Source of the DNA: Candidatus Omnitrophota bacterium
GTDB lineage: Bacteria > Omnitrophota > Omnitrophia > Omnitrophales > Aquincolibacteriaceae
DNA: 64,000 bases
NCBI GenBank assembly: GCA_043821445.1
Contig: JBDRCT010000034.1
Location: 2,210-66,209 of the forward strand
Direction of reading: 5' to 3'
Part shown: one piece after another, positions 44,232 to 64,000 of the stretch
How positions within the stretch are numbered: position 1 is the first letter of the stretch
Layout of the letters: every line of letters starts with the position of its first letter
Position numbers and translations under genes: made by a program
The notes under the pieces: generated by a model
What the model was told of the DNA's origin: nothing
Database searches by the model: none
The model's input: only the letters and a program-made list of their open reading frames with translations

Positions 44232-44879
44232 TTAGCCCTCCTCAATCCACGCTCCAAGGAGCGTCCTTCCGCCGGTGACATGCTGTCCGACCCGGATATC
44301 CGCCCGGAACATCCGTTGTGGGACATAGATCTCGACCCCGGACCCATAGCAAATCACGCCAAGCTTTTCCCCGCGCCCCATGACCTGTCCGATGGTTACG
44401 TCAGAGTAGATGCGCCGCGCGATCGCACCGGCCAGTTGACGCACCAGGACCCGCCGTGCGCGGTTCTCGATACAGATCCAGTTGGATTCGTTATGGTCGA
44501 AAGCATCCTTGCGCAACGCGTTTAAAAACTTCCCCTTTACGTAATTCTGATATTTAACGATGCCCGCCAAAGGCGCGCGTGTGGTATGCACGTCAAAGAT
44601 CGAAAGAAAGATACGGATACGCACCGCCTGCTCATGGAGAAATTTATCTTCAAATATCTCGTCAATTTTGACCACCGTCCCGTCCGCAGGCGCAAGAGGC
44701 CCCTGTTCTCTCGGAGACTCCCGTTGGGGATCCCTGAAAAAAAGAAGCTGTGCCACAAGAAGAAACACAAGCACGGAAGCCGCGTACGGAATGGGCCAAA
44801 ACCTTTCCACAATGAGGAGGACGCCTAAAAACATGACGCCGGGCCACACCCGCCTGTCGAGAGGAATCCTATGCGTCAT
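44232..44879 (-). CDS. psd: Phosphatidylserine decarboxylase-family protein (short, archaeal-like form)
   Basis: Start at MTHRIPLDRRVW (ATG 44879, ATGA overlap with the upstream radical-SAM gene); N-terminal transmembrane helix; conserved YGSGVE region near the C-terminus. Confidence 0.65.
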   Translation of the reverse strand: MTHRIPLDRRVWPGVMFLGVLLIVERFWPIPYAASVLVFLLVAQLLFFRDPQRESPREQGPLAPADGTVVKIDEIFEDKFLHEQAVRIRIFLSIFDVHTTRAPLAGIVKYQNYVKGKFLNALRKDAFDHNESNWICIENRARRVLVRQLAGAIARRIYSDVTIGQVMGRGEKLGVICYGSGVEIYVPQRMFRADIRVGQHVTGGRTLLGAWIEEG

Positions 44880-46492: not shown

Positions 46493-46540
46493 GATCGGCT
46501 TGTGCTTTCTCTCATGGGAATTGTCGCCATGAACATATTT

Positions 46541-48632: not shown

Positions 48633-48679
48633 GGGGAATAATTATACTCTATCTTTAGGATAACTGCTAGAAATGGTTT

Positions 48680-52484: not shown

Positions 52485-53951
52485 TCACAGTATTTTTCGG
52501 GTCTCCGCCTCGATCTTGGAGTCCGTCTCCGGAATCAAACTCTCCAGGAACTGTTCGAATTCGTCCTCCAAAGCAAGGTAGGGTACGGGCTTGAGCCCCG
52601 TGATCCGCTCGATCGCGTCCAAAGTCCTCAAATCGAACGGATCGCACATCGCGACTCTCACCGAGCCTTCAGAAACCCCGATTGGAACCGCACGGTGGTG
52701 AAAAACGAATTCTGCGTTAAAAAGATGAAAGATCGCCGGATCCGGGGTCCACCCCTTCAGACTGAAATAAGGAACCTTGAGCTTCTTTTCAAGCATCCTT
52801 CCCACATCCTGGCTTGAGATAAGATTCATATTGATCAGAGTCTGGCCAAGGCGATGGCCTGTCTGGAGATGCTGCTTGAGGGCCTCGCTCAACTGATCTT
52901 CGGTGATCAGTCCGGTACTCACAAGGACCTGACCCAGCGGATCCACGTGTTTTTTGGGCTTGGAGGGCTTGATCTCCGGTTCCAGGATGTGGACTGCCTC
53001 ATCTAGTTTTCTGATCGGGGACGAACGTCGGTCTTGAAGATAATGGCTCCCCGGCTGACTTTTCAGGAACGTCTTGACCTCCGCGGCGTCCTCCGCGATC
53101 TCGCGAAGGTTTGCGTAATTCCGGTAAAGGTTGGTGCAACCGGCGACCGAGCAGGACATGAGCGGGAAATTCTCCATTTTGCCGCGCCGGTTCTCCACGC
53201 GAATGAATCCCGTATCCCGATCTTTTTTGCTGTAATAGGTTGGAATGATCCGGTCAAAATCATCGATAAATTGGCGCGAAAAGACCTCCTCAATTTCTGT
53301 GGGAAGCACCACGATAAAATCGTCTCCGCCGATATGCCCGATGAAACACTCCCCGTCGCTTGCCATGGCGTGACTGGTCGCCACGAGGATCCGGGCGGTC
53401 TGGAGAATGGCCTCGTCACCTTTTTGAAAACTATAGTGGTCATTGAATGCTTTAAAGTTATTGATATCGATATAAAGGACCGAGAATTTTTCTCCCGCCT
53501 GGATCTTCTTCAGAACGATTTTCTCGATAGCGTGGTTACCTGGAAGATGCGTGAGCGCGTTGGCCTCCACCCGTTCCATTGTCTTTGCAATATTAAGGTT
53601 CACACGCAATTGCAGCACGAGAGGACTGAAAGGTTTGGCCAAAAAATCGTCGAAACCTTTTTCATGGCTGAGCATGAGCTCTGTCAGTTTATGTTCCTCC
53701 GTGATCATGATCACCGGGACCGACATAAGATGAGAACGGGAACGGATGACCTGGATGAGCATTTTGCCGCCCACGGGCTCCATATCGCTTGAAAGCAGGA
53801 TCAGGTCCAGGACCTCGCGATCCAGAAATCTCAGGACCTGGCTGCTTTTCGAGGCCTCAAAAACCTTGTGGTGGCGGGAGTGAAGGCGCATCAGGATCAG
53901 CTCCCTTGTCGCATCGTCTTTTTCGGCGACTAGGATCCGCTTTCCTTTCAT
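52485..53951 (-). CDS. Response regulator with REC, GGDEF-like (GGDDF) and C-terminal MshEN/T2SSE-N c-di-GMP-binding-type domains
   Basis: 488 aa; REC domain (ILVAEKDDATREL...DLILLSSDMEP...FLAKP); GGDEF-fold region with HIGGDDFIVVL; C-terminal 110 aa resembles the N-terminal domain of T2SS/MSHA ATPases (LVSTGLITEDQLSEALKQ...LGQTLI...LISSQDV). Confidence 0.7.
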   Translation of the reverse strand: MKGKRILVAEKDDATRELILMRLHSRHHKVFEASKSSQVLRFLDREVLDLILLSSDMEPVGGKMLIQVIRSRSHLMSVPVIMITEEHKLTELMLSHEKGFDDFLAKPFSPLVLQLRVNLNIAKTMERVEANALTHLPGNHAIEKIVLKKIQAGEKFSVLYIDINNFKAFNDHYSFQKGDEAILQTARILVATSHAMASDGECFIGHIGGDDFIVVLPTEIEEVFSRQFIDDFDRIIPTYYSKKDRDTGFIRVENRRGKMENFPLMSCSVAGCTNLYRNYANLREIAEDAAEVKTFLKSQPGSHYLQDRRSSPIRKLDEAVHILEPEIKPSKPKKHVDPLGQVLVSTGLITEDQLSEALKQHLQTGHRLGQTLINMNLISSQDVGRMLEKKLKVPYFSLKGWTPDPAIFHLFNAEFVFHHRAVPIGVSEGSVRVAMCDPFDLRTLDAIERITGLKPVPYLALEDEFEQFLESLIPETDSKIEAETRKIL

Positions 53952-54739
53952 AAAAAACTTTCTTTCTTGGAAGGAAATTTCTTATTCTGAACGTCACGGC
54001 AATAATCGCCGGCCGCTTTTTTCATGATCTTTTCAAGATCTGCGTAATGTCGCACAAAACGGGGACTCACTCCGGAACGGATGCCCAGCAGATCATGAAA
54101 CACCAGCACCTGTCCGTCGGTCGCGGGTCCCGCGCCGATCCCGATCGTCGGACACCGCACGGTTTTTGTGATCTCCTCAGCAAGTTTTGCCGGCACGCAT
54201 TCCAACACGATCGCAAATGCCCCCATCCGGTCCAGCAGTTTCGCGTCCGCACGGATCGTGGTTGCTTCGTCCGGATCTTTTCCGTAAACACGGTATTTTC
54301 CGTCTCCGACACTCTGCGGAAGCATACCGATATGTCCCATCACCGAAATGCCTTCGGTCACAAGTTTCTGGATCTGAGCTTCGATCTTCACACCCCCCTC
54401 GAGTTTCACGGCATCGGCTCCAGCTTCCCGGAGCAAACGTTGCGCATTGACAAGCGCCTTCGCGGGATCGTTATAGGAATGGATCGGCATGTCCGCAACC
54501 ACAAGCGCGTGCTTTACGGCCTTGGCAACCGCCGCTGTGTGATAAAGCATGTGTTCGATCGTCATGCCAAGCGTATTTTCGTGACCCAAAAGCACCATGC
54601 CGACAGAATCGCCGACCATAACAATATCCACACCCGCCTCATCCGCGATCCTTGCGCTCGGATAGTCGTAGAGACTGAGCGAAACGATCCTCTCTCCGGC
54701 CTGCTTTTTTGAATAGATGGTCTGGGATGTGTGTTTCAT
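53948..54739 (-). CDS. panB: 3-methyl-2-oxobutanoate hydroxymethyltransferase
   Basis: 263 aa; KetoPantoate hydroxymethyltransferase motifs (DIVMVGDSVGMV, VVADMP, GAD.VKLEGG). Confidence 0.9.
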   Translation of the reverse strand: MKHTSQTIYSKKQAGERIVSLSLYDYPSARIADEAGVDIVMVGDSVGMVLLGHENTLGMTIEHMLYHTAAVAKAVKHALVVADMPIHSYNDPAKALVNAQRLLREAGADAVKLEGGVKIEAQIQKLVTEGISVMGHIGMLPQSVGDGKYRVYGKDPDEATTIRADAKLLDRMGAFAIVLECVPAKLAEEITKTVRCPTIGIGAGPATDGQVLVFHDLLGIRSGVSPRFVRHYADLEKIMKKAAGDYCRDVQNKKFPSKKESFL

Positions 54740-54747
54740 TTTTCTAG

Positions 54748-54814
54748 CTCAACGCGCAAAGCGCAACGCACAACGTAAGACTTTCCGTTGCGTGTTGTGC
54801 GTTGACCGTTGCTC
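54748..54814. repeat. REP-like palindromic element, family 1 copy B
   Basis: CTCAACGCGCAAAGCGCAACGCACAACG...CGTTGCGTGTTGTGCGTTGACCGTTGC with a 12-bp perfect stem CAACGCACAACG/CGTTGTGCGTTG. It lies between the folD stop and the panB start, 8 nt from the panB ATG. Confidence 0.6.
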
Positions 54815-54816
54815 GA

Positions 54817-55674
54817 TCATTTAGTCTGCCACTCATACGCCGTGATGAGATTTTCCATGAGCATGGTCACGGTGAGCGGTCCCACGCCGCCCGGGACCGG
54901 CGTGATAAAACTGGCCTTTTTGACCGCCTCGCCGAACTCGACGTCACCTTGAAGTTTTCCGTCGACTTCCGTGGTCCCAACATCGATCACAACCGCACCT
55001 TTCTTGATCCAGGAGCCTTTCACAAGACAGGGCTTCCCCGAACAGGCCACGACGATCTCGCTCGTACTCACGATCTTTTTCATATCCTCTTCGCCTGTCC
55101 CTGTATTACAAACAAGCGTTGTCACCCGGGCCTCGCCCAGCAAGAGCTGAAGCGGACGTCCCACGATCGCACTTTGGCCGATGATCGCCGCCTTTTTGCC
55201 GCGCAGCATGATGCCGCTTGCTTTAATAAGCGTGTAGGCCGCAAACGCCGTAGGCGGGATCAGCTTACCACGCCGCAGAACGATCAGTCCAAGACTGGTA
55301 GGATGAACGCCCTCGACATCTTTCTTGGGATCAATAGCGAGCAGGACTTGATCGGAGTCAATCCCTTGAGGAAGCGGCATTGAGATGAAAAGTCCGTGGA
55401 CCGTTTTATCAGCATTCATTTCCTGGATCTTCTGGAGCAAAGCCTTTTCGCCTTTCACTTGATCCGGCATGATGCGTTTAAAATGAATGCCAAGTCTGCC
55501 GGCCAGTTTTTCCTGGCTGTTGATGTACCAAACCGCTGACGGATCCTCACTGGTCTGGATCGCAACCAAAGAGGGGCTGGGAAGTCCCGCGCCCGTAAAA
55601 GATTCCACTTTTTTGACAATCTTTTCCTGAAGTTCCGATGCGATCGCTTTCCCTTCCAATCTTTTGGCTTCCAC
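54817..55674 (-). CDS. folD: Bifunctional 5,10-methylene-THF dehydrogenase / 5,10-methenyl-THF cyclohydrolase
   Basis: Start set at GTG 55674 (MEAKRLEGKAIAS) with GGGAG ribosome-binding site; it is 1 nt after the upstream gene's TAA; motifs GKAIA, PLP.Q, GRPL..LL, TPVPGGVGP.T. Confidence 0.88.
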   Translation of the reverse strand: MEAKRLEGKAIASELQEKIVKKVESFTGAGLPSPSLVAIQTSEDPSAVWYINSQEKLAGRLGIHFKRIMPDQVKGEKALLQKIQEMNADKTVHGLFISMPLPQGIDSDQVLLAIDPKKDVEGVHPTSLGLIVLRRGKLIPPTAFAAYTLIKASGIMLRGKKAAIIGQSAIVGRPLQLLLGEARVTTLVCNTGTGEEDMKKIVSTSEIVVACSGKPCLVKGSWIKKGAVVIDVGTTEVDGKLQGDVEFGEAVKKASFITPVPGGVGPLTVTMLMENLITAYEWQTK

Positions 55675-55675
55675 T

Positions 55676-56284
55676 TTATTCACTCCCTTTTGTGAAGCGG
55701 CCACGGAGTTCTGCCAAAGCCTTTTCGGCACGCTCTTTCCGCTCTTTGTTTTTCATATAGACCACATTGATCTGCGCGGTATGAAAAGCCCCTTCGAACG
55801 CGGCGGTCAAAAGACCATCGCTTACGATCAGATCATTAGCGACTGCGCCTTTGACAAGGGTTTTCATGTGTGCGTTCCACTCTTTCGCCATTACAAGGAT
55901 AAGCGCAAGATCCGCTTGCAGGCGAAACGCATTCTGGAGCGCGTCTTCCAGCTTCTCGGGCCCCGCGCCCTCTTTGTAGCAAGCCATTACCTCATCGTAG
56001 ACCTTAGGATCAAGCGATACCACCTGAAGCGCGTCCGCCCGGGTCTTCTCCAGGGCACTGACGATCTCCCGCATACGCTGGCGGTTGGCCTCGTCCTGGA
56101 ACTTTTGTTCCGGCGCAAGATCAGCCTTGGGTTTGCGCCTGAGCGCGATCCGCGCCACCATTTGTGTCAGGGCCATCCCCAGGGCCCCGGCATAGGCCGA
56201 AACACTGCCTCCCCCCGGCACCGGTGCATCGCTTGCGAGTTTTTCCAAATAAGTTTCGAGACTGAGATCCGTATATTTTTCCAT
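55676..56284 (-). CDS. Formiminotransferase-cyclodeaminase-like (cyclodeaminase / methenyl-THF cyclohydrolase domain) protein
   Basis: Start at MEKYTDLSLETYLEKLASDAPVPGGGSVSAYAGALGMAL (typical FTCD_C N-terminus); all-alpha. Confidence 0.6.
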   Translation of the reverse strand: MEKYTDLSLETYLEKLASDAPVPGGGSVSAYAGALGMALTQMVARIALRRKPKADLAPEQKFQDEANRQRMREIVSALEKTRADALQVVSLDPKVYDEVMACYKEGAGPEKLEDALQNAFRLQADLALILVMAKEWNAHMKTLVKGAVANDLIVSDGLLTAAFEGAFHTAQINVVYMKNKERKERAEKALAELRGRFTKGSE

Positions 56285-56347
56285 AACACCCTTTAAAAAT
56301 AAAAGAACCCCCAACGCTTTTCTACGATCGAGGATTCGATTGTTGGA

Positions 56348-56758
56348 TTATCGTTTCAGAGTAACAAGTGCTTTTTGGTTGTTATTGGTCGCGATCACGA
56401 GAGTGCACGGCCCGTAAGATACCGGCGCGCTTGCATAGACGTTGAGAATATCGATCTTTTGCGCCGCGAGTTTTCGGGTGATCCGCATCAAAACTCCCGG
56501 CCTATCCACAACCTCCAGCAACAACACCGTATTCTCTTGGGCTTTTAACCCCTTCTTGGCAAGAAGGTCTCTCGTGTGCAATGTATCGTCCGTTACAAAA
56601 TTCATCAGCGCCACACCCCCGGCCGCCTGTGCTGAAATAGCCACGATGTCGATCCCGCGATCCGCCAACAACGCCGCGACCTTTGAAAGCACGCCGACCT
56701 TGTTCTCCGAAACCACCACGAACTCTTTTCCCAACTTCACGCTTTGGATCATGGCCAT
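56348..56758 (-). CDS. Tandem ACT-domain protein
   Basis: 136 aa; two beta-alpha-beta-beta-alpha-beta units (FVVVSENKVGVLSKVAALLADRGIDI; LLEVVDRPGVLMRITRKLAAQKIDI). Confidence 0.6.
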   Translation of the reverse strand: MAMIQSVKLGKEFVVVSENKVGVLSKVAALLADRGIDIVAISAQAAGGVALMNFVTDDTLHTRDLLAKKGLKAQENTVLLLEVVDRPGVLMRITRKLAAQKIDILNVYASAPVSYGPCTLVIATNNNQKALVTLKR

Positions 56759-56893: not shown

Positions 56894-57433
56894 TTAAAAT
56901 TCAATCCCTTGTTGGGCGGGAGTACCACGATCGAAGGGGTGCTTTACGCATCTCATCTCGGTCACAAGGTCCGCTAGATGAATGATCGCCTGAGGCGCGC
57001 CTCTGCCGGTCAGGATCACGTGTTGACCGGACCGTTTGCGCCTGAGCGCTTTGACCACATCGAAGGCCTTGAGGAATTTGTACCGGAGGGCAATATGGAT
57101 CTCATCGAAAATGACGAGGTCATATTTCGGATCTTTCAGAAGTTCGCAACATTTCTTCCATGCCTTCTGAACGGCCTTGGTATTCTCTTCACGCGCCACG
57201 CGCCACGTAAATCCACCGCCAAAACTCCAGACGCGGAACCGGCCCGCGAATTTTTTCAAAGCACGGAACGCGCCTTCTTTATCCAAAGCCTTGCTTTGGA
57301 CGGGATATTTGAAGAATTGGACCACTCCCACTCGTCCGCCATGTCCCAAGATCCGTAGCGCCATGCCAAGCGCGGCAGTCGTCTTTCCTTTGCCGTTGCC
57401 TGTATAAACCTGGACCAAACCCTGGGTCTTCAC
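56894..57433 (-). CDS. cobO: Cob(I)yrinic acid a,c-diamide adenosyltransferase (CobA/BtuR type)
   Basis: 179 aa; P-loop VYTGNGKGKTTAALG and VIFDEI motif. Confidence 0.85.
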   Translation of the reverse strand: MKTQGLVQVYTGNGKGKTTAALGMALRILGHGGRVGVVQFFKYPVQSKALDKEGAFRALKKFAGRFRVWSFGGGFTWRVAREENTKAVQKAWKKCCELLKDPKYDLVIFDEIHIALRYKFLKAFDVVKALRRKRSGQHVILTGRGAPQAIIHLADLVTEMRCVKHPFDRGTPAQQGIEF

Positions 57434-58230
57434 CTTCCCTCCCTTTGATCGAGATCATCCGCTAAAGGCAGAATGAACGGTTTCATGGAGACCGGATTTT
57501 TTCCGGCCGAAACGCGCGCTCCGAATACCGATTCGATCGTCGCGCGTTCCAGTACCTCTTCAGGAGTGCCTATCATATGAATACGCCCGCGATCCATCAA
57601 GAGCATCTTGCGAGCGTACTCCGCAGCAAGGTTGAGGTCGTGTAGAACAGCCACCACGGTCAGGTGCCTTGCGCGATTAAGCCGGGCCAGAAGCCCGAGT
57701 ACCGTCACTTGATGCGCGATGTCTAAATGCGCGGTGGGCTCATCCAGAAAAAGCCATTCGGGTTCTTGGGCAAGGGCACGCGCGATCGCGGCCAGCTGCC
57801 GCTCCCCACCGCTTGTTTCTGTCATCAACCGGTTCCGTAAATGATCTATGCCGGCTTTTCGCATCACTTGATCGGCGATCTCAAGATCCGCCGCTGTTTC
57901 CAGGAACTGGAAGTCCCCGTAATGCGGGATACGCCCCAAAAGCACGAATTCTTCTATCGTCATTGGAATGGCCGGGACATTTTGTGACACGACCGCACAG
58001 CGTTTGGCGAAATGCTTCGGCAAAATACTCCAGAGGTTCTTTCCCTCGAAAAGAACCTCCCCGTGCGAAGGCGGAAGCGATCGGGTCAACGCCCGAACGA
58101 GCGTGGTCTTTCCGGAACCATTGGGACCGAGAATGGCAAAAAAATCGCCGCGATCGATCCCGAGATCGATCCCCTCCAGGACCATCTTTTTCCCGTACCC
58201 ACAGCTGAGTCCGTTCGCCGTGAGCGTCAT
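57430..58230 (-). CDS. btuD: ABC transporter ATP-binding protein, iron-siderophore/cobalamin family (FecE/BtuD-like)
   Basis: Start at MTLTANGLSCGYG (ATG 58230, ATGA overlap with the permease stop); Walker A GPNGSGKTTL; signature SGGERQ; Walker B LFLDEPT. Confidence 0.85.
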   Translation of the reverse strand: MTLTANGLSCGYGKKMVLEGIDLGIDRGDFFAILGPNGSGKTTLVRALTRSLPPSHGEVLFEGKNLWSILPKHFAKRCAVVSQNVPAIPMTIEEFVLLGRIPHYGDFQFLETAADLEIADQVMRKAGIDHLRNRLMTETSGGERQLAAIARALAQEPEWLFLDEPTAHLDIAHQVTVLGLLARLNRARHLTVVAVLHDLNLAAEYARKMLLMDRGRIHMIGTPEEVLERATIESVFGARVSAGKNPVSMKPFILPLADDLDQREGR

Positions 58231-59246
58231 AGAGGTTTGCCCTTTCCGCGCACGAGGACATAAATAAAAAGACATCCGCCTAAAAGCCCTGTCACAACCC
58301 CGACCGGAAGCTCTACGGGAGCGATCAGAATGCGGGCCACTGTATCGCAAAGCACAAGAAAAGTTCCGCCTCCAACAAAGGAGGTCATCAAGAGTATCCT
58401 GGCATCGCGACCCACAAGCCCCCTCATCATATGCGGTACGACAAGCCCGACAAATCCGATCACACCCGCCACCGCCACGCTCACTCCCGTCAGCACCGAA
58501 GCGATTACAAAAAGGGCGCGTTTGGTCCGCTCGACCGGGATCCCGAGATGACGCGCTTCTTCTTCTCCAAGGGCAAGCGCGTTCAGATCCGCGTGGAAGA
58601 GATAACAACTCCCGAGACCGAGCACCGAGACCGCGATCATGATACGGATCAATGCCGGGTCCGGCTCGTCAAGGGATCCCATGATCCAGAAAAGAATGCC
58701 TTGAAGATCTTCGGTCCGCGAAACGGCAAGAATGAGCAGCATGAGCGATGACGAGATAAAGGTCAACATCACACCCGTGAGCAACATCCCTTGAAGGGGA
58801 AGCTCCCGCCCACGGCGGCTTAAAAAATAAAGCAAAAAGATCACAAGGCAAGCGCCCAGGAATCCGGAAAACGGAAGGCCGAGATGCCAAACCCCGGAAA
58901 GCCCCCAGAGAATATTGAGCGACACCCCGACCGCGGCACCTCCCGAAATCCCGAGTGTATAGGGTTCGACCAAAGGGTTTCTGAACATCCCTTGCAGGAT
59001 CACGCCCGCAAGGCTCAAGGCGCCCCCGACGGCAAACCCCAAGAGAAGCCTCGGAAAACGGATGTCCCAAATGATACGGCCTTCGATGCTATCCGGAGGC
59101 CTGGAAAGGAGTTCGATCACTTTTCTGGCCGGAATGCCGGAGGAGCCTGAGATCAAAGCAAGGATCGCGGCCGCGATCGCCGCAAGCACGATCAAGCCAA
59201 GCCAACCCAGCCAACGTCTTGAACGATTATGAAGCATAGCTCGCAT
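58227..59246 (-). CDS. btuC: FecCD-family ABC permease (BtuC-like)
   Basis: 339 aa; about 9 transmembrane helices; FecCD signature region. Confidence 0.85.
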   Translation of the reverse strand: MRAMLHNRSRRWLGWLGLIVLAAIAAAILALISGSSGIPARKVIELLSRPPDSIEGRIIWDIRFPRLLLGFAVGGALSLAGVILQGMFRNPLVEPYTLGISGGAAVGVSLNILWGLSGVWHLGLPFSGFLGACLVIFLLYFLSRRGRELPLQGMLLTGVMLTFISSSLMLLILAVSRTEDLQGILFWIMGSLDEPDPALIRIMIAVSVLGLGSCYLFHADLNALALGEEEARHLGIPVERTKRALFVIASVLTGVSVAVAGVIGFVGLVVPHMMRGLVGRDARILLMTSFVGGGTFLVLCDTVARILIAPVELPVGVVTGLLGGCLFIYVLVRGKGKPL

Positions 59247-59353
59247 GGACCCCGTTAGAGACAGGAAGCGCTTTTATCGCTTCCGTGATTTATTGAAAAA
59301 TTTGACACTAATTTCATTTTTTCGTTTCTTGTAGAAAAATTTGAATTGCTTCA

Positions 59354-60202
59354 TCAATTTCTAACGGGGTGGAGGATTTGGATCATATTCTCAAGGGCCC
59401 GGGTGAAGGTCACGGGGGTCGGAGAACAGAAGAGGTCAGAATTGACGATCACAATGCGGTTTTCACGGGCCGCCTTGAGTTCGGGATATTGTTGCCACAT
59501 TTGCTTTTCCTTTTCCCCGTCAAATCCCATGCTCGAGATGATGATCATGTCGGGATTTTGCGCGAGCACTTTTTCCCGGGAATAAAGCGCCCGTTTTCCG
59601 TCCGCCGCAATGTTCTTCCCGCCCGCAAATTCGATCAGATCGTTCAAAAAGGAATCCCGCGTCACTGTCACAAGCGGTTCAGCACCTATCTCGAGAAATA
59701 CCAAAAGGACCGGACCTTGCGGGACTTTCTCCCGCAGCAACTTAACCGCCTTTTCCTGTTCTTCCGAAATGCGCACAGCCTCAGCTTCTTTGCCGATCAT
59801 CCGCGCAAGACGAAGAAAGGACCCGCTAATTCCTTTAAAATTTTTTGCAGGCGCAAACGTTTCCACATGAAGCCCGAGGGCTCGCATTTTGGCGACAGAG
59901 CGAGGATCGATCATCGGGGTTACGATTACAAGATCGGGGTCAAGAGATACGATCTTCTCGAGATTGGCATCGACGATATTCCCGACTTCAGGGATCTCTT
60001 GAGCTTCGACGGGCCGTACGCAAAAGTGCGATCTCCCGACCAAACGCTTCGCCTCGCCCAGGAGGAATATCTCTTCGGTCACCACGGTCGAAAGCGAGAC
60101 AATACGCTGAGGGGATCTTTCTTCGGCAGAAACACGGCCTGGAAGGATCATGAGGAAGGCTATCGCCCAGAGGATCGTGACCCGTCCCTGTTTGTAGTTC
60201 AC
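59354..60202 (-). CDS. btuF: Periplasmic cobalamin/iron-siderophore binding protein (BtuF-like)
   Basis: 282 aa; signal peptide; RIVSLSTVVTEEIFLLG...DLVIV pattern of the class III substrate-binding-protein fold. Confidence 0.75.
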   Translation of the reverse strand: MNYKQGRVTILWAIAFLMILPGRVSAEERSPQRIVSLSTVVTEEIFLLGEAKRLVGRSHFCVRPVEAQEIPEVGNIVDANLEKIVSLDPDLVIVTPMIDPRSVAKMRALGLHVETFAPAKNFKGISGSFLRLARMIGKEAEAVRISEEQEKAVKLLREKVPQGPVLLVFLEIGAEPLVTVTRDSFLNDLIEFAGGKNIAADGKRALYSREKVLAQNPDMIIISSMGFDGEKEKQMWQQYPELKAARENRIVIVNSDLFCSPTPVTFTRALENMIQILHPVRN

Positions 60203-60861
60203 ACGAGGCTCCCAAGCTCAAGTTTTGAAACCCAATGTTTTTCGATCGAAAGCCTCTCGGACTCATGGACCGATACGGGAGTTTTAAAGATCGGCCCGTC
60301 GTAGACGAACGTATGATACTCGCCCTTTTCACCGCACGGATCGACATGCGGCACGGTCCTTATCTTCCCCGGAAAATCCCGGTCGATCTCGCAGCCTAGC
60401 CATTCAGCGCCAAGTACCACTTCGTCCGTCACTACGATACGGCTTTTAAAACCCGCAGCGATGAATTCTTCGAGCAAAAGCTCCCGCTTTTCGTTCCAAA
60501 GCGGCAAGAAAGCTTTAAGCCCCGTCTCACGGCAGACCCGCTCGACCCATTCCCGGTGCGGCTCAAGATCAATATCGCCGAAGATCCCGGCTTCCACGCC
60601 TTTTGTTTTCAGTTCCGTCAACACCGACTTGAATTCCTTTTCGTAATCCTTCCAGGATGCGGCGCGTTGAATGAGCGGGACCCCGATCGCTGCCGCCTGG
60701 GCGCGCAGTACCGCTGCGCTCAGCCCGTGAGAACGCGAGTACTCACCGTCCTCGGTCATCATGTTCACTAGATGCGACACCTCAATCTCCGGATGTTTCA
60801 TCATCCGGTAACACGCAAGTACGCTGTCTTTACCCCCGCTCCAGGAAACAAAGACTTTCAT
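60199..60861 (-). CDS. PP-loop ATP pyrophosphatase of the MJ0570/Dph6-like family
   Basis: Start at MKVFVSWSGGKDS (PP-loop SGGKDS); ATGA-type overlaps with both neighbours. Confidence 0.55.
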   Translation of the reverse strand: MKVFVSWSGGKDSVLACYRMMKHPEIEVSHLVNMMTEDGEYSRSHGLSAAVLRAQAAAIGVPLIQRAASWKDYEKEFKSVLTELKTKGVEAGIFGDIDLEPHREWVERVCRETGLKAFLPLWNEKRELLLEEFIAAGFKSRIVVTDEVVLGAEWLGCEIDRDFPGKIRTVPHVDPCGEKGEYHTFVYDGPIFKTPVSVHESERLSIEKHWVSKLELGSLV

Positions 60862-61826
60862 ATTTTCTTGCCTTTCTTTTGGGACCTCACAGGCTTTTGA
60901 TACCGTTCCAGGAACGGAAGCACGTGCCCGCACACCTTGCAATGAAAATGGGTTCGAGGCATCCCTGCCCTGCAACTCGGACAACTTTTTTCGCTTCCCA
61001 CGGGCTGCGGGATTTCACCAATGACTTTTCTGTAAATTTTGTAATAATAAAAATGCTCCTTATTGAAGAACTTCACAGGGTAAGAATGGCCGTTGAATTC
61101 CCTGTCCGAGATCTTGTCTGTCAGGATCTGCCTTAAACGCGTCATGCCCGAACCCACTTCAAGCGGACGCTTGCTCTGCCAGGCGATCCCCGCAGGCAAA
61201 AGTTCCTCGAACGCTTTCCGCAGGATCCATTTTCCCCATCGCTTGCCGCCCGAACACCGGATTTTCCGATCGCCCGGAATATTCAATGCCATTCTGACCA
61301 CGGCGGGGTCGAGAAAAGGTTGGACGATCCCGAGCTTCAAGGCCTTGCCGATATCATTGGAGCTGAAAACCATCCGCCGGCTGACCCTCCGGATATAACC
61401 GTCCAGGTCCGCAAGGTCCGCCATGAAGGAATATCCCCCGAATAGCTCGTCGCTGCCGTCCCCTGTCCCGATATTTTTCAAGCCGAGTTCTTTGGCTTTT
61501 TTGAGACCGAAATAAGCCGCCAAATCGTTCGGAAGTGCCGAATCGAAGGATCGCAGGATCCGGATCACGTCCGGAATGCTACGAATCGCTTCCTCGATGC
61601 TTACAAAGTGGTGGACCTGACGCATCCCCAAAGTCTTCGCCAGAGCATTCGCATAAGGAAGATCTGCCGCGTTGCGCTCAAGACTGACGGTGATGCCGGT
61701 CGCTTTCGGATTGAGCACCGCTACGACCGAACTGTCCAGACCCCCGGAGAAAAGCACCCCGTCATAAGGCGCCTTTGCCGCTGCCTTAGAGATCCCTTTT
61801 CTGACGTGAGCCGCAAGAGTGGGCAC
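60858..61826 (-). CDS. Asparagine-synthetase-like PP-loop synthetase domain protein (no glutaminase domain) with C-terminal zinc ribbon
   Basis: 322 aa; PP-loop LFSGGLDSS; C-terminus CPSCRAGMPRTHFHCKVCGH. Confidence 0.55.
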   Translation of the reverse strand: MPTLAAHVRKGISKAAAKAPYDGVLFSGGLDSSVVAVLNPKATGITVSLERNAADLPYANALAKTLGMRQVHHFVSIEEAIRSIPDVIRILRSFDSALPNDLAAYFGLKKAKELGLKNIGTGDGSDELFGGYSFMADLADLDGYIRRVSRRMVFSSNDIGKALKLGIVQPFLDPAVVRMALNIPGDRKIRCSGGKRWGKWILRKAFEELLPAGIAWQSKRPLEVGSGMTRLRQILTDKISDREFNGHSYPVKFFNKEHFYYYKIYRKVIGEIPQPVGSEKSCPSCRAGMPRTHFHCKVCGHVLPFLERYQKPVRSQKKGKKI

Positions 61827-61828
61827 TT

Positions 61829-62431
61829 TTACTGGTCCGCTAATTTAAAAGTGACCGGCGTTTCTACGATGTCTTTGATCGGTTGATCGTTCTTGAGCGC
61901 CGGCTGGAATTTCCATTTTTTTATGGATTCACGGGCCGCTTCATCCAAAAGCTCGTGCCCTGAAGACTGTACGAACTCCATATGACCGACAGAGCCATCG
62001 GGAAGAACCTCGTAGGCCAGCACTACTCGTCCTTCCCATCCCCGCCGGATCGCTTTCCGCGGATAAGGCACCGCTTCCGGGACCGAAACCAACAAAGGCG
62101 GCGTCAAACCACTTGGGGCCGTTTCTTCATCCGATCGACGGCTTTCAAGACGATTCCGATCCGCACTTTGTCCCTGGCGAAAGATAGAGGGACCAACTTG
62201 ATTTCCCGTAAATCCCGCAGCCACGAACCTTGAAGATCGTGCGAACTGCTTCGGCCCCGCAGTCATGTGTTCCGGAGTTTTCACTTTCACGTTCACAGGA
62301 ATACCTTGCGAGATCACGGGCCCTGTTTCGACCGAGGGCCAGGCGCCGACATTTTCCTGTGCTTTAAGACGAACCCCGAAGAGAACCGCTAAGAGTGCGC
62401 TTACATAGATGATTTTTAACCGTTTCTTCAT
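61829..62431 (-). CDS. tonB: Energy transducer TonB
   Basis: Start at MKKRLKIIYVSALLAVLFG (transmembrane anchor); C-terminal TonB domain (PYPRKAIRRGWEGRVVLAYEVLPDGSV). Confidence 0.7.
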   Translation of the reverse strand: MKKRLKIIYVSALLAVLFGVRLKAQENVGAWPSVETGPVISQGIPVNVKVKTPEHMTAGPKQFARSSRFVAAGFTGNQVGPSIFRQGQSADRNRLESRRSDEETAPSGLTPPLLVSVPEAVPYPRKAIRRGWEGRVVLAYEVLPDGSVGHMEFVQSSGHELLDEAARESIKKWKFQPALKNDQPIKDIVETPVTFKLADQ

Positions 62432-64000
62432 AAAAATTCCCATTTGGCGCCGATCACGAATTCCCGGGAAGCTCCGGGATCCACCCATGTGTAGGTGCCG
62501 GCTGGATAGATGGCCGTACCGAAGGAGGTGGCGTTGATCGCGCGTGAATAATACTTTTCATCGAACACATTATTGACCTTGAGATAGATCTGCTTACCAC
62601 GCCAGTCATAAGAGAGAACGAGATCCCAGACCGAGTAGGGCTTGATCCAATGCCCCGCCCCGCCGGTCGCATTCAGGGTGGCTTGGGTCGCGGTTTCATA
62701 GGATGTCGGGTGCTGCCTCCCAGTGATAGTCCCGTAGAGCCCGACCTTGAATCCTTTGTAATTCTCGCCCAGACGGAGCAACGGAGAGACCATCATTCCC
62801 ACCACAAAACGATTTTCAGGGACCTGCCCAAGTGTCCGTCCGTCTTTTAAGCTCTGCGCGCCGTCCGTTTGACGAACCCAAGCCTCAGTCAACGTATAAC
62901 CTCCATAGAACTTAACCTCCTCCACGGGCGTCAGATCAAGCCGTGTTTCGATACCGTAACGGCGCGTCTTACCGACATTGATGTTTCGTCCATAAGGCGT
63001 TGCCGCGCTAATCGCCGTGCTGTCATAACGGATTTCATCCTGAACATCAATAAGAAAATAACTCGCTTTAGCTTCCGCAAACTTCCCGGCACGGACCCTG
63101 GAACCCACTTCGTAACTGTTGGAAAGTTCAGGGTTCAAAGGCGTGAGAGCGGTGCCCCCATACGGCGCCAGTTCCGTAATGGTAGGAACGCGAAACCCCT
63201 GAGAATAATTGGTAAAAAGATCTACGCTCTTGACCGGCTTGACGGTAACACCCGTCGAAACCGTCGACTTATGCCAACGGTTCGTCTGACCGGCCGCCCG
63301 GTTCAAGGCCGTATCCGAATGGAACCAATTGTAGTCATGCCGCATGCTGACATAAGGGATCACGCGATCAAAAAGCTTAAGTGTCTCACCCCAAAAGAGA
63401 GCGACATTATCCGCCTGAGCGGTCCGGTCCGTGCGGGTAACCGGTGAGGCGGGCACAGTACCGTTCGGGGCATCGCGCTGGATCGACCAATTGCGGCCCG
63501 CCCGGTACTCCATGCCGATCATACTTTCATTCCCCAACCAATCCCACGTATCTTGATAGCGCGTTTGCCAGGTAAGATCACGCTCCTGGTTTTTGGTGTT
63601 GAGGAGCGACGTGTAGGGATTGTAACCATAGGTCACAAAAGTCCCGGTGGTGTTGACAAAACTGATGTCATTCCAGCGTTCGCTCGCGAGAATTGAGGCC
63701 AGGATCCGGTCATCCCAGAATTTCTTTTCAGCTTCGAGCTGTACGATCGTGTTCTTGAATTTTCGACCATCGAGCGGCTTATTGCAGCGACGAGGATCAT
63801 CCTGATATTGTTGAAATGTCATTTCTCCAGGCATGGAGACCGCATCCTCAATGTGTTTCAGCCCGAAAGAGATCTTCCCCTGCTCATTGGGAAGCTCGTA
63901 AGCGGTCTTAATGTCAAAAGAGGTGAGACGAAATTCGCCGTTCGCACGGAACCCGTGCTCACTGTCACGCTCACCGTTGAAATAATAACCCAGCTTGCCT
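62428..64000 (-). CDS. TonB-dependent outer-membrane receptor, 5' end outside the window (partial; BtuB-like by context)
   Basis: C-terminal beta-barrel ending ...GAKWEFL with a terminal aromatic residue. The frame stays open upstream of the listed ATG to position 64000 (hand translation ...GKLGYYFNGERDSEHGF...). Confidence 0.8.
   Translation of the reverse strand, partial: GKLGYYFNGERDSEHGFRANGEFRLTSFDIKTAYELPNEQGKISFGLKHIEDAVSMPGEMTFQQYQDDPRRCNKPLDGRKFKNTIVQLEAEKKFWDDRILASILASERWNDISFVNTTGTFVTYGYNPYTSLLNTKNQERDLTWQTRYQDTWDWLGNESMIGMEYRAGRNWSIQRDAPNGTVPASPVTRTDRTAQADNVALFWGETLKLFDRVIPYVSMRHDYNWFHSDTALNRAAGQTNRWHKSTVSTGVTVKPVKSVDLFTNYSQGFRVPTITELAPYGGTALTPLNPELSNSYEVGSRVRAGKFAEAKASYFLIDVQDEIRYDSTAISAATPYGRNINVGKTRRYGIETRLDLTPVEEVKFYGGYTLTEAWVRQTDGAQSLKDGRTLGQVPENRFVVGMMVSPLLRLGENYKGFKVGLYGTITGRQHPTSYETATQATLNATGGAGHWIKPYSVWDLVLSYDWRGKQIYLKVNNVFDEKYYSRAINATSFGTAIYPAGTYTWVDPGASREFVIGAKWEFL

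What the first reader, a model, noticed from the sequence alone, without database searches (positions are those of the whole stretch)
56894..64000. Cobalamin-uptake operon carrying two extra PP-loop ATP-pyrophosphatases
The operon reads TonB-dependent receptor (partial), tonB, an AsnB-like synthetase-domain-only protein (SGGLDSS, C-terminal zinc ribbon), an MJ0570/Dph6-like PP-loop protein (SGGKDS), btuF, btuC, btuD and cobO. All are co-directional and ATGA-coupled. PP-loop enzymes adenylate carboxylates or carbonyls for amidation or ligation. Placed inside a corrinoid import and adenosylation operon, they may remodel scavenged incomplete corrinoids, for example by amidating side-chain carboxylates, a role normally filled by the non-homologous CobB/CobQ. 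A cobalamin riboswitch is expected upstream of the receptor, outside the window.
Basis: partly seen in the sequence, partly recalled or inferred. Interest (0 to 1): 0.55.

Follow-up and report, generated by a model that had tools for sequence, protein, structure and literature searches.

The report
B12-salvage operon with two adenylating enzymes
A vitamin-B12 uptake operon of an uncultured Omnitrophota bacterium carries two ATP-using "amide-making" enzymes that recur together in B12-salvage operons of more than ten phyla; one was linked to B12 salvage in 2012, its partner seems never to have been described, and what either does is still untested.

Summary
On the minus strand, 56894-64000 encodes a TonB-dependent receptor (cut by the window end), TonB, an AsnB-like synthetase-only protein with a zinc ribbon, a Dph6/MJ0570-like PP-loop protein, a BtuFCD-type importer and CobO. 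Five of seven junctions are 4-nt overlaps.

The pairing is not a chance insertion. In 80 species-representative genomes carrying the AsnB-like gene, 65 of 68 loci of at least 6 kb hold two or more other cobamide-salvage genes. The Dph6-like gene follows it in 54 of 59 loci with enough sequence. Rfam cobalamin riboswitches head these operons, including in the closest relative (78% identity). The window's own leader lies beyond base 64000 and could not be retrieved.

The Dph6-like protein belongs to the "DUF71-B12" subfamily, linked to B12 salvage by de Crécy-Lagard et al. in 2012 and still uncharacterised. I found no description of the AsnB-like partner. CbiZ occurs in the same operons, which weakens the 2012 idea that DUF71-B12 substitutes for CbiZ.

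Best mechanism, inferred rather than shown: ATP- and ammonia-dependent re-amidation of free side-chain carboxylates on imported corrinoids. I rate it a new variant of a known kind, of moderate interest.

The parts
62428..64000 (-). TonB-dependent outer-membrane receptor, C-terminal 523 aa. The N-terminus and the leader lie beyond the window end.
   Evidence: PF00593 at E 1e-39. No NCBIfam equivalog cut-off is reached. Orthologous receptors in L001 and L006 lie directly behind an RF00174 riboswitch.
61829..62431 (-). TonB-family energy transducer. The start ATG at 62431 overlaps the receptor stop as ATGA.
   Evidence: PF03544 TonB_C at E 9e-23. Junction sequence read.
60858..61826 (-). AsnB-like synthetase-domain-only PP-loop protein with a C-terminal Cys4 zinc ribbon ('AsnBL'), 322 aa.
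   Evidence: Pfam finds PF00733 only. The AsnB equivalog scores 127 bits against a cut-off of 499. SGGLD, TGDGSDE, K199, K219 and CxxC...HCxxCG are invariant. AF2 model pLDDT 90; best PDB match is the E. coli AsnB synthetase domain. 65 of 68 homologous loci lie in cobamide operons.
60199..60861 (-). DUF71-B12 subfamily PP-loop ATP pyrophosphatase (a Dph6/MJ0570 paralogue), 220 aa. Its ATG overlaps the AsnBL stop as ATGA.
   Evidence: PF01902 at E 1e-54. Dph6 equivalog 119.5 bits against a cut-off of 197.3. Motif GEKGEYHT where Dph6 has GEGGEFET, which is the subfamily signature in PMC3541065. AF2 pLDDT 94.8; TM 0.84 to PH1257 and PF0828.
59354..60202 (-). Periplasmic substrate-binding protein of the BtuF/Peripla_BP_2 class, with a signal peptide. 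Its GTG start overlaps the DUF71 stop as GTGA.
   Evidence: PF01497 at E 3.5e-33. BtuF equivalog 96.8 bits, below the cut-off of 234. Junction read.
59247..59353 (-). 107-nt AT-rich intergenic spacer with the hairpin GGAAGCG-ATAAAA-CGCTTCC. On the mRNA strand it is not followed by a T-run.
   Evidence: Function unknown; possibly an mRNA processing or stability element or an internal promoter region.
58227..59246 (-). FecCD-family ABC permease (BtuC-like).
   Evidence: PF01032 at E 1.7e-89. Its best NCBIfam hits are BtuC models, below cut-off.
57430..58230 (-). ABC transporter ATPase (BtuD-like). Its start ATG at 58230 overlaps the BtuC stop as ATGA.
   Evidence: PF00005. Junction read.
56894..57433 (-). 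CobO/CobA ATP:corrinoid adenosyltransferase. Its GTG start overlaps the BtuD stop as GTGA.
   Evidence: PF02572 at E 1.5e-58. TIGR00708 scores 193.2 against a cut-off of 167.75.

Best explanation
The two PP-loop genes form a conserved two-enzyme module of a corrinoid (vitamin-B12 family) scavenging operon that is under cobalamin-riboswitch control.

Proposed sequence of events. Corrinoids are taken up by the TonB-dependent receptor and the BtuFCD-type ABC importer. In the cytoplasm the DUF71-B12 protein and its AsnB-like partner each bind the imported corrinoid. Each uses ATP to adenylate a free side-chain carboxylate, releasing PPi, and resolves the acyl-AMP with free ammonia to a carboxamide. 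Neither protein has a glutaminase domain. This converts deamidated or incompletely amidated corrinoids into fully amidated ones that CobO can adenosylate and B12 enzymes can use. Two enzymes would be needed because they cover different side-chain positions.

Functionally this would be a non-homologous, ammonia-dependent counterpart of CbiA/CobB and CbiP/CobQ, serving salvage or repair rather than de novo synthesis.

Shown: gene content, conservation of the pair, embedding in the salvage operon, riboswitch control in relatives, retention of adenylation residues, loss of asparagine-synthetase- and Dph6-specific residues, and fusions of DUF71-B12 to corrinoid-handling domains.

Inferred: that a corrinoid is the direct substrate of both enzymes, that the reaction is amidation, and that ammonia is the nucleophile.
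For: 1. Context.
- AsnBL homologues from 80 species-representative genomes (49-78% identity; Omnitrophota, Nitrospirota, Desulfobacterota, Aerophobetes, Elusimicrobiota, Syntrophorhabdus, Archaeoglobus and others) lie in co-directional operons. The typical order is cobC-cobU-cobT-cobS-cbiB-cobD-AsnBL-DUF71-btuFCD-cobO-receptor.
- 65 of 68 loci of at least 6 kb have two or more other cobamide genes.
- DUF71 follows AsnBL in 54 of 59 loci with enough sequence, and is directly adjacent in 41.

2. Regulation.
- RF00174 was confirmed by Rfam in 14 distinct relatives' loci (L001/L003 are copies of one locus), 17 sites in all. These include L006, the closest relative with the same architecture.
- A profile built from these riboswitches hits 42 of 78 non-redundant loci upstream on the same strand.
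- In 4 loci AsnBL is the first gene after the riboswitch.

3. Chemistry of the parent families (established knowledge). AsnB and Dph6 both catalyse R-COO- + ATP + NH3 -> R-CONH2 + AMP + PPi. The corrin ring carries six carboxamides.

4. Catalytic residues.
- AsnBL keeps the PP-loop and the counterparts of AsnB K429 and K449. It has an invariant D at E348.
- It lacks the glutaminase domain and AsnB's 'TTIR' and D384/R387 substrate segment.
- DUF71 keeps SGGKD but has the B12-type E-K/N-G-E-Y-H motif.

5. Fusions. DUF71-B12 is fused to a BtuF-type domain (L047 and P0291, which are only 30% identical to each other), to a PduO-type adenosyltransferase (P0375), to a nitroreductase domain (P0363), and to the PF04071 Cys-rich domain (P0342).

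6. The canonical amidase-equivalent step is missing. CbiP/CbiA-like genes occur in only 2 of 80 and 3 of 80 loci, although CobO, CbiB and CobD, which flank the CbiP step in the known pathway, are common.

7. Demand. The window itself encodes a B12-binding radical SAM enzyme at 44879-46540.
Against: - There is no biochemical or genetic evidence for either family. DUF71-B12 has been an open prediction since 2012.
- Nothing tested here shows that carboxylate-bearing corrinoids are imported or are an important nutrient pool.
- DUF71-B12 often occurs without AsnBL. AsnBL was found in only 17 of 50 DUF71-anchored loci of at least 6 kb, so the 'two positions, two enzymes' idea is not required.
- In 12-16 of 80 loci a ribosomal-peptide cassette (CbpA/CbpB) is inserted exactly between the two genes. 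This hints at a peptide substrate in at least some lineages.
- PP-loop enzymes can also activate carbonyl or amide oxygens and can use nucleophiles other than ammonia.
- The riboswitch of this operon itself was not observed.
- I could not test whether host genomes lack CbiA/CbiP.
Confidence: 0.4

Rival explanations
1. The pair acts on the nucleotide loop or linker rather than on the ring amides, as a form of cobamide remodelling. One version is an ATP-driven alternative to CbiZ, with activation of the f-side-chain amide or carboxylate followed by cleavage or exchange. Another version is ligation of an amine other than ammonia, such as aminopropanol(-phosphate) or ethanolamine-phosphate, to cobyric acid. 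The 2012 paper favoured a CbiZ-like role in pseudo-B12 salvage.
For: - DUF71-B12 clusters with cbiB and btuFCD and was reported to be anti-correlated with CbiZ in bacteria (PMC3541065).
- In most loci the pair sits immediately after cbiB-cobD.
- PP-loop enzymes such as QueC are known to activate amide oxygens (established knowledge).
Against: - CbiZ lies in the same operon as DUF71 in 8 of 80 and 6 of 80 loci. The two are therefore not simple functional alternatives.
- CbiB is usually present, so a second linker ligase seems redundant.
- The minimal operon type found in the window, L001, L006 and L011 has only transport genes, CobO and the pair, with no loop-assembly genes.
- Hydrolysis by an ATP pyrophosphatase is mechanistically unusual, as a reviewer of the 2012 paper also noted.
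Confidence: 0.2
2. One or both enzymes modify a peptide or protein rather than the corrinoid. One candidate is the CbpA 'cobalamin-operon peptide' matured by the radical SAM/SPASM enzyme CbpB. Another is a component of the uptake machinery. This would be analogous to lasso-peptide cyclases (AsnB-like) and to Dph6, which amidates a protein-bound carboxylate.
For: - The CbpA gene (about 35 aa, '...RKKCKAxGTGLSHYxLLDKK', TIGR04164) and the CbpB gene (TIGR04163, 673 bits) lie exactly between AsnBL and DUF71 in 12-16 of 80 loci.
- AsnBL gives weak partial hits to lasso and macrolactam cyclase models.
- Dph6's natural substrate is a protein.
Against: - The cassette is absent from the window and from about 80% of loci, whereas the enzyme pair is retained.
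- No other candidate precursor peptide is conserved.
- The residues of Dph6 that contact EF-2 are not conserved in DUF71-B12 (PMC3541065).
- DUF71 fusions are to corrinoid-handling domains, not to peptide-recognition domains.
Confidence: 0.1
3. The two genes are ordinary housekeeping enzymes, an ammonia-dependent asparagine synthetase and a 'diphthine-ammonia ligase' as PGAP names them. On this view they merely happen to be inserted in this btu operon.
For: Database names and family-level Pfam hits.
Against: - Both score far below the NCBIfam equivalog cut-offs: 127 against 499 and 94.8 against 267 for AsnB, and 119.5 against 197.3 for Dph6.
- AsnB's substrate segment and glutaminase domain are missing.
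- Bacteria have no diphthamide (established knowledge; PMC3541065).
- The association with cobamide operons and riboswitches holds across more than ten phyla.
Confidence: 0.02

Closest known systems
DUF71-B12 subfamily of the DUF71/COG2102 PP-loop ATPases (de Crécy-Lagard et al. 2012, Biol Direct 7:32, PMC3541065)
   Same: - The window's 220-aa protein has the PP-loop.
- It has the subfamily motif (E-K/N-G-E-Y-H in place of Dph6's EGGE/DxE).
- It has the N-type ATP pyrophosphatase fold.
- It shows the defining clustering with btuFCD.
   Different: - The paper does not describe a stand-alone AsnB-like partner gene, the riboswitch control, or the CbpA/CbpB insertion.
- Its proposal that the family substitutes for bacterial CbiZ is weakened here, because CbiZ occurs in the same operons.
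- The function is still untested.
Dph6, diphthine-ammonia ligase (archaea and eukaryotes)
   Same: Same fold and ATP site. The predicted chemistry is the same: carboxylate + ATP + NH3 gives a carboxamide.
   Different: - The substrate, diphthine on EF-2, does not exist in bacteria.
- The catalytic Glu is replaced by His.
- The score is below the equivalog cut-off.
Asparagine synthetase B and its relatives: beta-lactam synthetase, carbapenam synthetase, lasso-peptide cyclases
   Same: - Fold of the synthetase domain (TM 0.69 to 1CT9).
- PP-loop SGGLDS.
- Conserved Lys counterparts of K429 and K449.
   Different: - No N-terminal glutaminase domain.
- AsnB's aspartate-side residues are not kept. 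E348 is Asp.
- There is an extra invariant Cys4 zinc ribbon.
- It occurs almost exclusively in cobamide operons.
CbiA/CobB and CbiP/CobQ, the known corrinoid side-chain amidotransferases
   Same: The proposed role is the same: turning corrin side-chain carboxylates into amides next to the adenosylation step. The pair sits in operons that otherwise contain the steps before (CobO) and after (CbiB/CobD) CbiP.
   Different: - There is no homology. The known enzymes are P-loop (ATP -> ADP + Pi) with a glutamine amidotransferase domain.
- The enzymes here are PP-loop (ATP -> AMP + PPi) without any glutaminase domain.
- This is a resemblance in proposed function only, and it is not shown.
NH3-dependent NAD+ synthetase NadE and QueC
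   Same: These are PP-loop enzymes that amidate a carboxylate on a cofactor or cofactor precursor with free ammonia. They are the best mechanistic precedent for the proposed reaction (established knowledge). They appear as distant fold matches.
   Different: They are different subfamilies with small substrates and no link to corrinoids.
CbiZ and CbiR, the known cobamide-remodelling hydrolases
   Same: They are encoded in salvage operons and act on imported corrinoids before loop re-assembly. CbiZ is also found fused to a BtuF-like domain (L067).
   Different: They are hydrolases without ATP use and are unrelated in sequence. CbiZ co-occurs with the pair rather than replacing it.

Membership tests
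DUF71-B12 subfamily (PMC3541065) | PP-loop SGGKD ATP-binding motif and the N-type ATP pyrophosphatase fold | tested here: met
   The sequence has 'SWSGGKDS', invariant in 37 homologues. PF01902 at E 1e-54. The AF2 model has TM 0.84 to PH1257 and PF0828.
DUF71-B12 subfamily (PMC3541065) | C-terminal motif ENGE[F/Y]H instead of Dph6's EGGE/DxE | tested here: met
   The window has GEKGEYHT, aligned to GEGGEFET of PF0828. G-E-x-G-E-x-H is invariant, with K or N at the second position.
DUF71-B12 subfamily (PMC3541065) | Physical clustering with btuFCD, cbiB or other B12 salvage genes | tested here: met
   The window operon shows it. So do 39 of 50 DUF71-anchored metagenome loci of at least 6 kb and nearly all AsnBL-anchored loci.
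DUF71-B12 subfamily (PMC3541065) | Reported anti-correlation with bacterial CbiZ. This is a property used to infer function, not a sequence criterion. | tested here: not met
   CbiZ (PF01955 at E 9e-53) is in the same operon as DUF71 in 8 of 80 and 6 of 80 loci.
Dph6, diphthine-ammonia ligase | Score at or above the NCBIfam TIGR03679 equivalog cut-off, and the catalytic EGGE/DxE motif | tested here: not met
   119.5 bits against a cut-off of 197.3. Glu is replaced by His.
Dph6, diphthine-ammonia ligase | The organism makes diphthine-modified EF-2 | not testable with these tools
   Established knowledge: bacteria lack EF-2 diphthamide (also stated in PMC3541065).
Asparagine synthetase B (glutamine-hydrolysing) | [quoted passage not shown] | tested here: not met
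   The protein is 322 aa and starts about 27 residues before the PP-loop. Pfam finds only PF00733. It aligns to AsnB residues 209-504 only.
Asparagine synthetase B (glutamine-hydrolysing) | Equivalog-level similarity and the aspartate-site residues | tested here: not met
   NF006949 scores 127.4 against 499, and TIGR01536 scores 94.8 against 267.1. AsnB 'DVTTIRAST' aligns to the invariant 'DPA[IL]PNDL'. D384 and R387 have no counterpart. E348 aligns to D123. The roles of these residues are from my memory of the AsnB literature.
Asparagine synthetase B (glutamine-hydrolysing) | PP-loop and adenylation lysines, that is, competence for acyl-AMP formation | tested here: met
   SGGLDS aligns to AsnB 234-239. 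K199 and K219 align to K429 and K449. All are invariant.
Cobalamin-riboswitch-controlled btu uptake operon | RF00174 aptamer in the 5' leader | not testable with these tools
   The leader lies beyond base 64000, an estimated 0.9-1.1 kb past the end by comparison with L006. The contig could not be retrieved. In relatives the feature is met: L006 at 41.7 bits, L001 at 71.7 bits, and 12 further distinct loci.
Cobalamin-riboswitch-controlled btu uptake operon | BtuB, BtuF, BtuC and BtuD at equivalog level | tested here: inconclusive
   The family-level domains are present. All B12-specific NCBIfam models score below their cut-offs. The receptor's best hits are haem and siderophore receptor models.
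CobA/CobO ATP:corrinoid adenosyltransferase | Equivalog score | tested here: met
   TIGR00708 scores 193.2 against 167.75, and NF004637 scores 202.8 against 185.
CbiA/CbiP (CobB/CobQ) corrinoid amidotransferases | CbiA-type P-loop domain plus GATase_3 domain | tested here: not met
   No such domains occur in any protein of the operon, and no CbiP-like ORF occurs anywhere in the window. The resemblance is in proposed function only.
Lasso-peptide / RiPP AsnB-like cyclase system | An adjacent precursor peptide and its maturation partners | tested here: not met
   There is no CbpA-like or other conserved small ORF in the window. Cyclase models give only partial hits far below cut-off.

The most novel reading that the evidence does not exclude
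AsnBL and DUF71-B12 together form a second, evolutionarily independent corrinoid amidation system. It would be PP-loop based, AMP-forming and ammonia-dependent. It would let B12-auxotrophic anaerobes of many phyla repair deamidated cobamides, or complete partially amidated corrinoids scavenged from the environment. That would imply that corrinoid carboxylic acids are a real, exchanged nutrient pool. In a subset of lineages the system would be further elaborated by a radical-SAM-modified peptide (CbpA).
Probability: 0.35. Interest if true: 0.75.

Novelty: new variant of a known kind. Interest (0 to 1): 0.55.

Why it matters
Most microbes depend on corrinoids made by others, and the salvage pathway is thought to be essentially complete. 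DUF71-B12 has been an unassigned 'missing function' in that pathway since 2012.

This analysis adds three things:
- DUF71-B12 has an obligate-looking partner: an AsnB-like adenylating enzyme with a zinc ribbon that I found in no paper of the library searched and in no curated NCBIfam model.
- The pair is under cobalamin-riboswitch control in many phyla.
- The pair co-occurs with CbiZ.

Together these narrow the hypotheses and give two concrete proteins and a short list of substrates to test.

If the amidation or repair reading is right, it adds a new enzymatic step to B12 salvage. It also makes damaged or incomplete corrinoids a nutrient class to consider in models of microbial B12 exchange.

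A practical point also follows. Bacterial 'diphthine--ammonia ligase' and 'asparagine synthase-related' annotations in such operons are misleading.

Tried and rejected
- **Extending the window's contig to see its own riboswitch.** Exact-sequence look-ups of AsnBL (P0001), BtuC and CobO found no indexed contig. I relied on relatives instead.
- **Looking for a riboswitch inside the window.** Rfam at gathering threshold and a custom nhmmer profile both found none, as expected from the geometry.
- **Looking for other cobamide genes in the 64-kb window.** A phmmer search with CobU, CobT, CobS, CbiB, CobD, CbiP and CbiX queries found none. This operon is therefore the 'minimal' variant.
- **Literature.** Seven searches relevant to the AsnB-like partner or to later work on DUF71-B12 found only the 2012 paper. 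One 2009 mention of an asparagine synthase near a B12-dependent protein is unrelated. A search for salvage of deamidated cobalamins found nothing relevant.
- **Natural AsnB-DUF71 fusions.** These would support shared amidation chemistry. None appeared among 160 loci or among the top 150 representative DUF71 clusters. The fusions reported in three archaea in 2012 could not be retrieved, so I could not check which DUF71 subtype they carry.
- **The BtuF-DUF71 in-frame ORF in L141.** It begins with a lipoprotein signal peptide, which would put DUF71 outside the cell. I treated it as a possible assembly artefact and did not use it.
- **Phylogenetic profiling of the pair against CbiA/CbiP across whole genomes.** This was not possible, because only locus flanks are accessible.
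- **The housekeeping asparagine synthetase / Dph6 reading.** Rejected on cut-off scores, missing residues and synteny.

Full report
**What is there**

The finding's region is one co-directional gene string on the minus strand:
- a TonB-dependent receptor, 62428-64000, with its N-terminus cut by the window end;
- TonB, 61829-62431;
- an AsnB-like protein of 322 aa, 60858-61826;
- a Dph6/MJ0570-like protein of 220 aa, 60199-60861;
- a Peripla_BP_2 binding protein with a signal peptide, 59354-60202;
- a FecCD permease, 58227-59246;
- an ABC ATPase, 57430-58230;
- CobO, 56894-57433.

CobO passes its NCBIfam equivalog cut-off. The receptor and the BtuFCD-like proteins match only at family level.

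I read every junction. Three overlap as ATGA and two as GTGA. One has a 2-nt gap. One, BtuF/BtuC, is a 107-nt AT-rich spacer with a hairpin.

The window comes from an Omnitrophota MAG, because the AsnB-like protein is 100% identical to an NCBI protein from such a MAG. Because the operon is on the minus strand, its promoter and leader lie beyond base 64000. No cobalamin riboswitch is found inside the window.

**Is the arrangement more than chance?**

I aligned 32 homologues of the AsnB-like protein, here called AsnBL. I used the alignment to fetch 80 loci from species-representative genomes. They are 49-78% identical and come from Omnitrophota, Nitrospirota, Desulfobacterota, Aerophobetes, Elusimicrobiota, Aminicenantes, Hydrogenedentota, Syntrophorhabdus, an Archaeoglobus and others.

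I scored the ORFs of each locus with phmmer. The queries were the window's proteins and the salvage genes of a Thermodesulfovibrio locus. The results were:
- 65 of 68 loci of at least 6 kb carry two or more other cobamide genes.
- The typical order is cobC-cobU-cobT-cobS-cbiB-cobD-AsnBL-DUF71-btuF-btuC-btuD-cobO-receptor, all on one strand.
- Among 59 loci with at least 2.6 kb downstream of AsnBL, 54 have the Dph6-like gene within 2.5 kb, and in 41 it is directly adjacent.

I then repeated the test from the other side, with 80 metagenome loci anchored on the Dph6-like gene. Of the 50 loci of at least 6 kb, 39 contain two or more cobamide genes and 17 contain AsnBL. AsnBL therefore almost always comes with the Dph6-like gene, while the latter is more widespread on its own.

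**Riboswitch**

Rfam finds RF00174 at gathering threshold in every batch of relatives tested.
- L001/L003 is a 67%-identical Omnitrophica locus with the same receptor-TonB-AsnBL-DUF71-BtuFCD order. It scores 71.7 bits just 5' of the receptor.
- L006 is the closest relative at 78% identity, with the same architecture including CobO. It scores 41.7 bits at 6716-6905, directly 5' of the receptor.
- Hits were also found in L010, L018 (two), L036, L057, L024 (two), L028, L029, L043, L049, L063 and L074 (two).

A nucleotide profile built from the first seven riboswitches hits 42 of 78 non-redundant AsnBL loci upstream on the same strand at E below 1e-10. All seven mid-range profile hits that I re-checked with Rfam were confirmed. 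In four loci AsnBL is the first gene after the riboswitch.

By comparison with L006, the window's own riboswitch should lie roughly 0.9-1.1 kb beyond base 64000. I could not retrieve that DNA.

**What the two proteins are**

*The Dph6-like protein.* It is PF01902 at E 1e-54, but it scores 119.5 bits against a cut-off of 197.3 for the archaeal Dph6 equivalog. Its predicted structure (pLDDT 94.8) superposes on PH1257 and PF0828 with TM 0.84. Where those Dph6-type proteins have GEGGEFET, it has GEKGEYHT. The G-E-x-G-E-x-H pattern is invariant in 37 homologues.

This is the signature of the 'DUF71-B12' subfamily defined by de Crécy-Lagard et al. 2012 (PMC3541065). They found 75 of 102 members next to btu genes and 18 of 102 next to cbiB. 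They proposed a role in B12 salvage, possibly replacing bacterial CbiZ. This half of the finding is thus already published as a prediction. I found no later experimental work.

*AsnBL.* Pfam finds PF00733 only. It scores far below both asparagine-synthetase equivalog cut-offs, 127 against 499 and 95 against 267. Its model (pLDDT 90) matches the synthetase domain of E. coli AsnB with TM 0.69 normalised to the query. It then matches human ASNS, beta-lactam synthetase and carbapenam synthetase.

In the profile alignment to AsnB:
- the PP-loop and the lysines aligning to K429 and K449 are invariant;
- E348 aligns to an invariant Asp;
- AsnB's 'TTIR' segment and D384/R387 have no counterpart;
- the glutaminase domain is absent;
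- a Cys4 zinc ribbon (CxxC...HCxxCG) is invariant.

The roles of the AsnB residues are from my memory of the AsnB literature. The alignment itself is a tool result.

AsnBL therefore looks like a competent adenylating enzyme with a substrate other than aspartate and without a glutamine-derived ammonia supply. No NCBIfam model names it. The seven literature searches relevant to this question did not turn up a description of it in B12 operons. The 2012 paper mentions only AsnB-DUF71 fusions in three archaea. It interprets them as an ammonia supply for Dph6.

**Further clues to function**

1. *Fusions.* Among the 150 best representative clusters of the Dph6-like protein, and in the loci, B12-type DUF71 domains are fused to several partners:
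   - a BtuF-type domain. L047 has no signal peptide. P0291 has a transmembrane helix between the two domains, which would place DUF71 in the cytoplasm and BtuF outside. The two proteins are only 30% identical, so the architecture is old;
   - a PduO-type adenosyltransferase segment (P0375);
   - a nitroreductase domain (P0363);
   - the Cys-rich PF04071 domain (P0342).

   These fusions tie DUF71-B12 physically to corrinoid handling at the point of import.

2. *CbiZ.* It lies in the same operon in 8 of 80 and 6 of 80 loci. This weakens the idea that DUF71-B12 substitutes for CbiZ.

3. *CbiP-like genes.* They are nearly absent from these operons (2 of 80 and 3 of 80 loci). In contrast, CobO, CbiB and CobD are common, and these are the steps that flank CbiP's amidation step in the known pathway. 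In the four loci that combine CbiP with DUF71 (L004, L094, L101, L135), AsnBL is missing. This is suggestive, but the numbers are tiny.

4. *The minimal operon type.* The window, L001, L006 and L011 contain only transport genes, the pair and, in some, CobO. Whatever the pair does must therefore make sense without loop-assembly genes in cis.

5. *Demand.* The window encodes a B12-binding radical SAM enzyme at 44879-46540, so the organism uses cobalamin.

**Most likely mechanism**

Both parent families catalyse the same reaction type: a carboxylate plus ATP gives an acyl-AMP, and ammonia then resolves it to a carboxamide with release of AMP and PPi. The corrin ring is unusual in carrying six such amides. 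Neither protein here has a glutaminase domain.

The best-supported reading is that the pair re-amidates, or completes the amidation of, imported corrinoids that carry free side-chain carboxylates. This would happen before adenosylation by CobO. It would be an ammonia-dependent, non-homologous counterpart of CbiA and CbiP used for salvage or repair.

I put about 0.9 on 'dedicated corrinoid-salvage enzymes' and about 0.4 on this specific chemistry.

The rivals are:
- action on the linker or nucleotide loop, or use of another amine (0.2);
- action on a peptide or protein (0.1). This is prompted by the CbpA/CbpB cassette, which sits exactly between the two genes in 12-16 of 80 loci but is absent from the window;
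- housekeeping enzymes inserted by chance (0.02).

**Novelty and verdict**

The operon and the B12 link of the Dph6-like gene are known in kind. The AsnB-like partner appears to be undescribed. So do the tight AsnBL-DUF71 module under riboswitch control across many phyla, and its co-occurrence with CbiZ.

I rate it a new variant of a known kind, with interest 0.55. It would not astonish a B12 specialist. It does turn a 14-year-old 'missing function' into a directly testable two-enzyme problem.

Noticed in passing
L010:7179-8740, L017:4439-5992, and L012-L015, L039, L040, L047, L049, L050, L085 (not in the window): A RiPP-like cassette is inserted exactly between AsnBL and DUF71 in 12-16 of 80 loci. 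It consists of a basic peptide of about 35 aa ('...VIAYRKKCKANGTGLSHYVLLDKK', NCBIfam TIGR04164 'cobo_pep'/CbpA) and a radical SAM/SPASM maturase (TIGR04163 CbpB, 673 bits). In P0030 the peptide is annotated as fused to the C-terminus of AsnBL. Its function is unknown.
   Followed up: partly
L005:5738-6454, and after DUF71 in L010, L013, L015, L026, L027 and others: A small activase-like radical SAM protein (Fer4_12 + Radical_SAM, about 238 aa) recurs directly downstream of DUF71 in 13 of 80 and 10 of 80 loci. No NCBIfam equivalog names it.
   Followed up: partly
L045:2392-3150, L090, L094, L106, L127, L141, L150; L067:1665-3713: CbiZ (PF01955) occurs in the same operon as DUF71-B12 in 14 of 160 loci. 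This is contrary to the strict anti-correlation reported in 2012. L067 encodes a BtuF-like-CbiZ fusion.
   Followed up: yes
P0291, P0375, P0363, P0342, P0286, P0248 (representative-library hits): DUF71-B12 domains occur in several fusion architectures. These are a TM helix plus a BtuF domain, a PduO-type adenosyltransferase segment, a nitroreductase domain, the PF04071 Cys-rich domain, a GNAT domain, and a tandem DUF71 duplication.
   Followed up: partly
window 59247-59353 (-): The only long intergenic gap in the operon is a 107-nt AT-rich spacer between btuF and btuC. It contains the hairpin GGAAGCG-ATAAAA-CGCTTCC, with no T-run after it on the mRNA strand.
   Followed up: no
window 44879-46540 (-) and 47169-48641 (-): The first is a B12-binding radical SAM enzyme (PF02310 + PF04055 + DUF4070). 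A second radical SAM protein lies next to it. Both lie about 10 kb downstream of the operon. The first is a likely consumer of the imported cobalamin.
   Followed up: no
window 53948-56758 (-): Directly downstream of cobO, on the same strand, lie an ACT-domain protein, an FTCD_C (cyclodeaminase/cyclohydrolase-like) protein, FolD and PanB. These are one-carbon/folate and pantothenate genes. There is no evidence that they belong to the B12 operon.
   Followed up: no
(database names): NCBI's pipeline names bacterial DUF71-B12 proteins 'diphthine--ammonia ligase', and names AsnBL 'asparagine synthase-related' or, once, 'modified peptide precursor CbpA'. The first is a likely over-annotation, because bacteria lack diphthamide and the score is below the equivalog cut-off.
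   Followed up: partly
L018 (813-1016 and 12035-12209), L024 (9502-9777 and 16710-16976), L074 (3732-3934 and 4042-4328): Some salvage loci carry two cobalamin riboswitches. In L074 they are in tandem. In L018 and L024 one heads the enzyme genes and a second sits before a second receptor gene.
   Followed up: no
L041:14271-14711: A small secreted DUF4430 (PF14478) protein is encoded after btuD in 4 loci. It may be an additional corrinoid-binding component.
   Followed up: no
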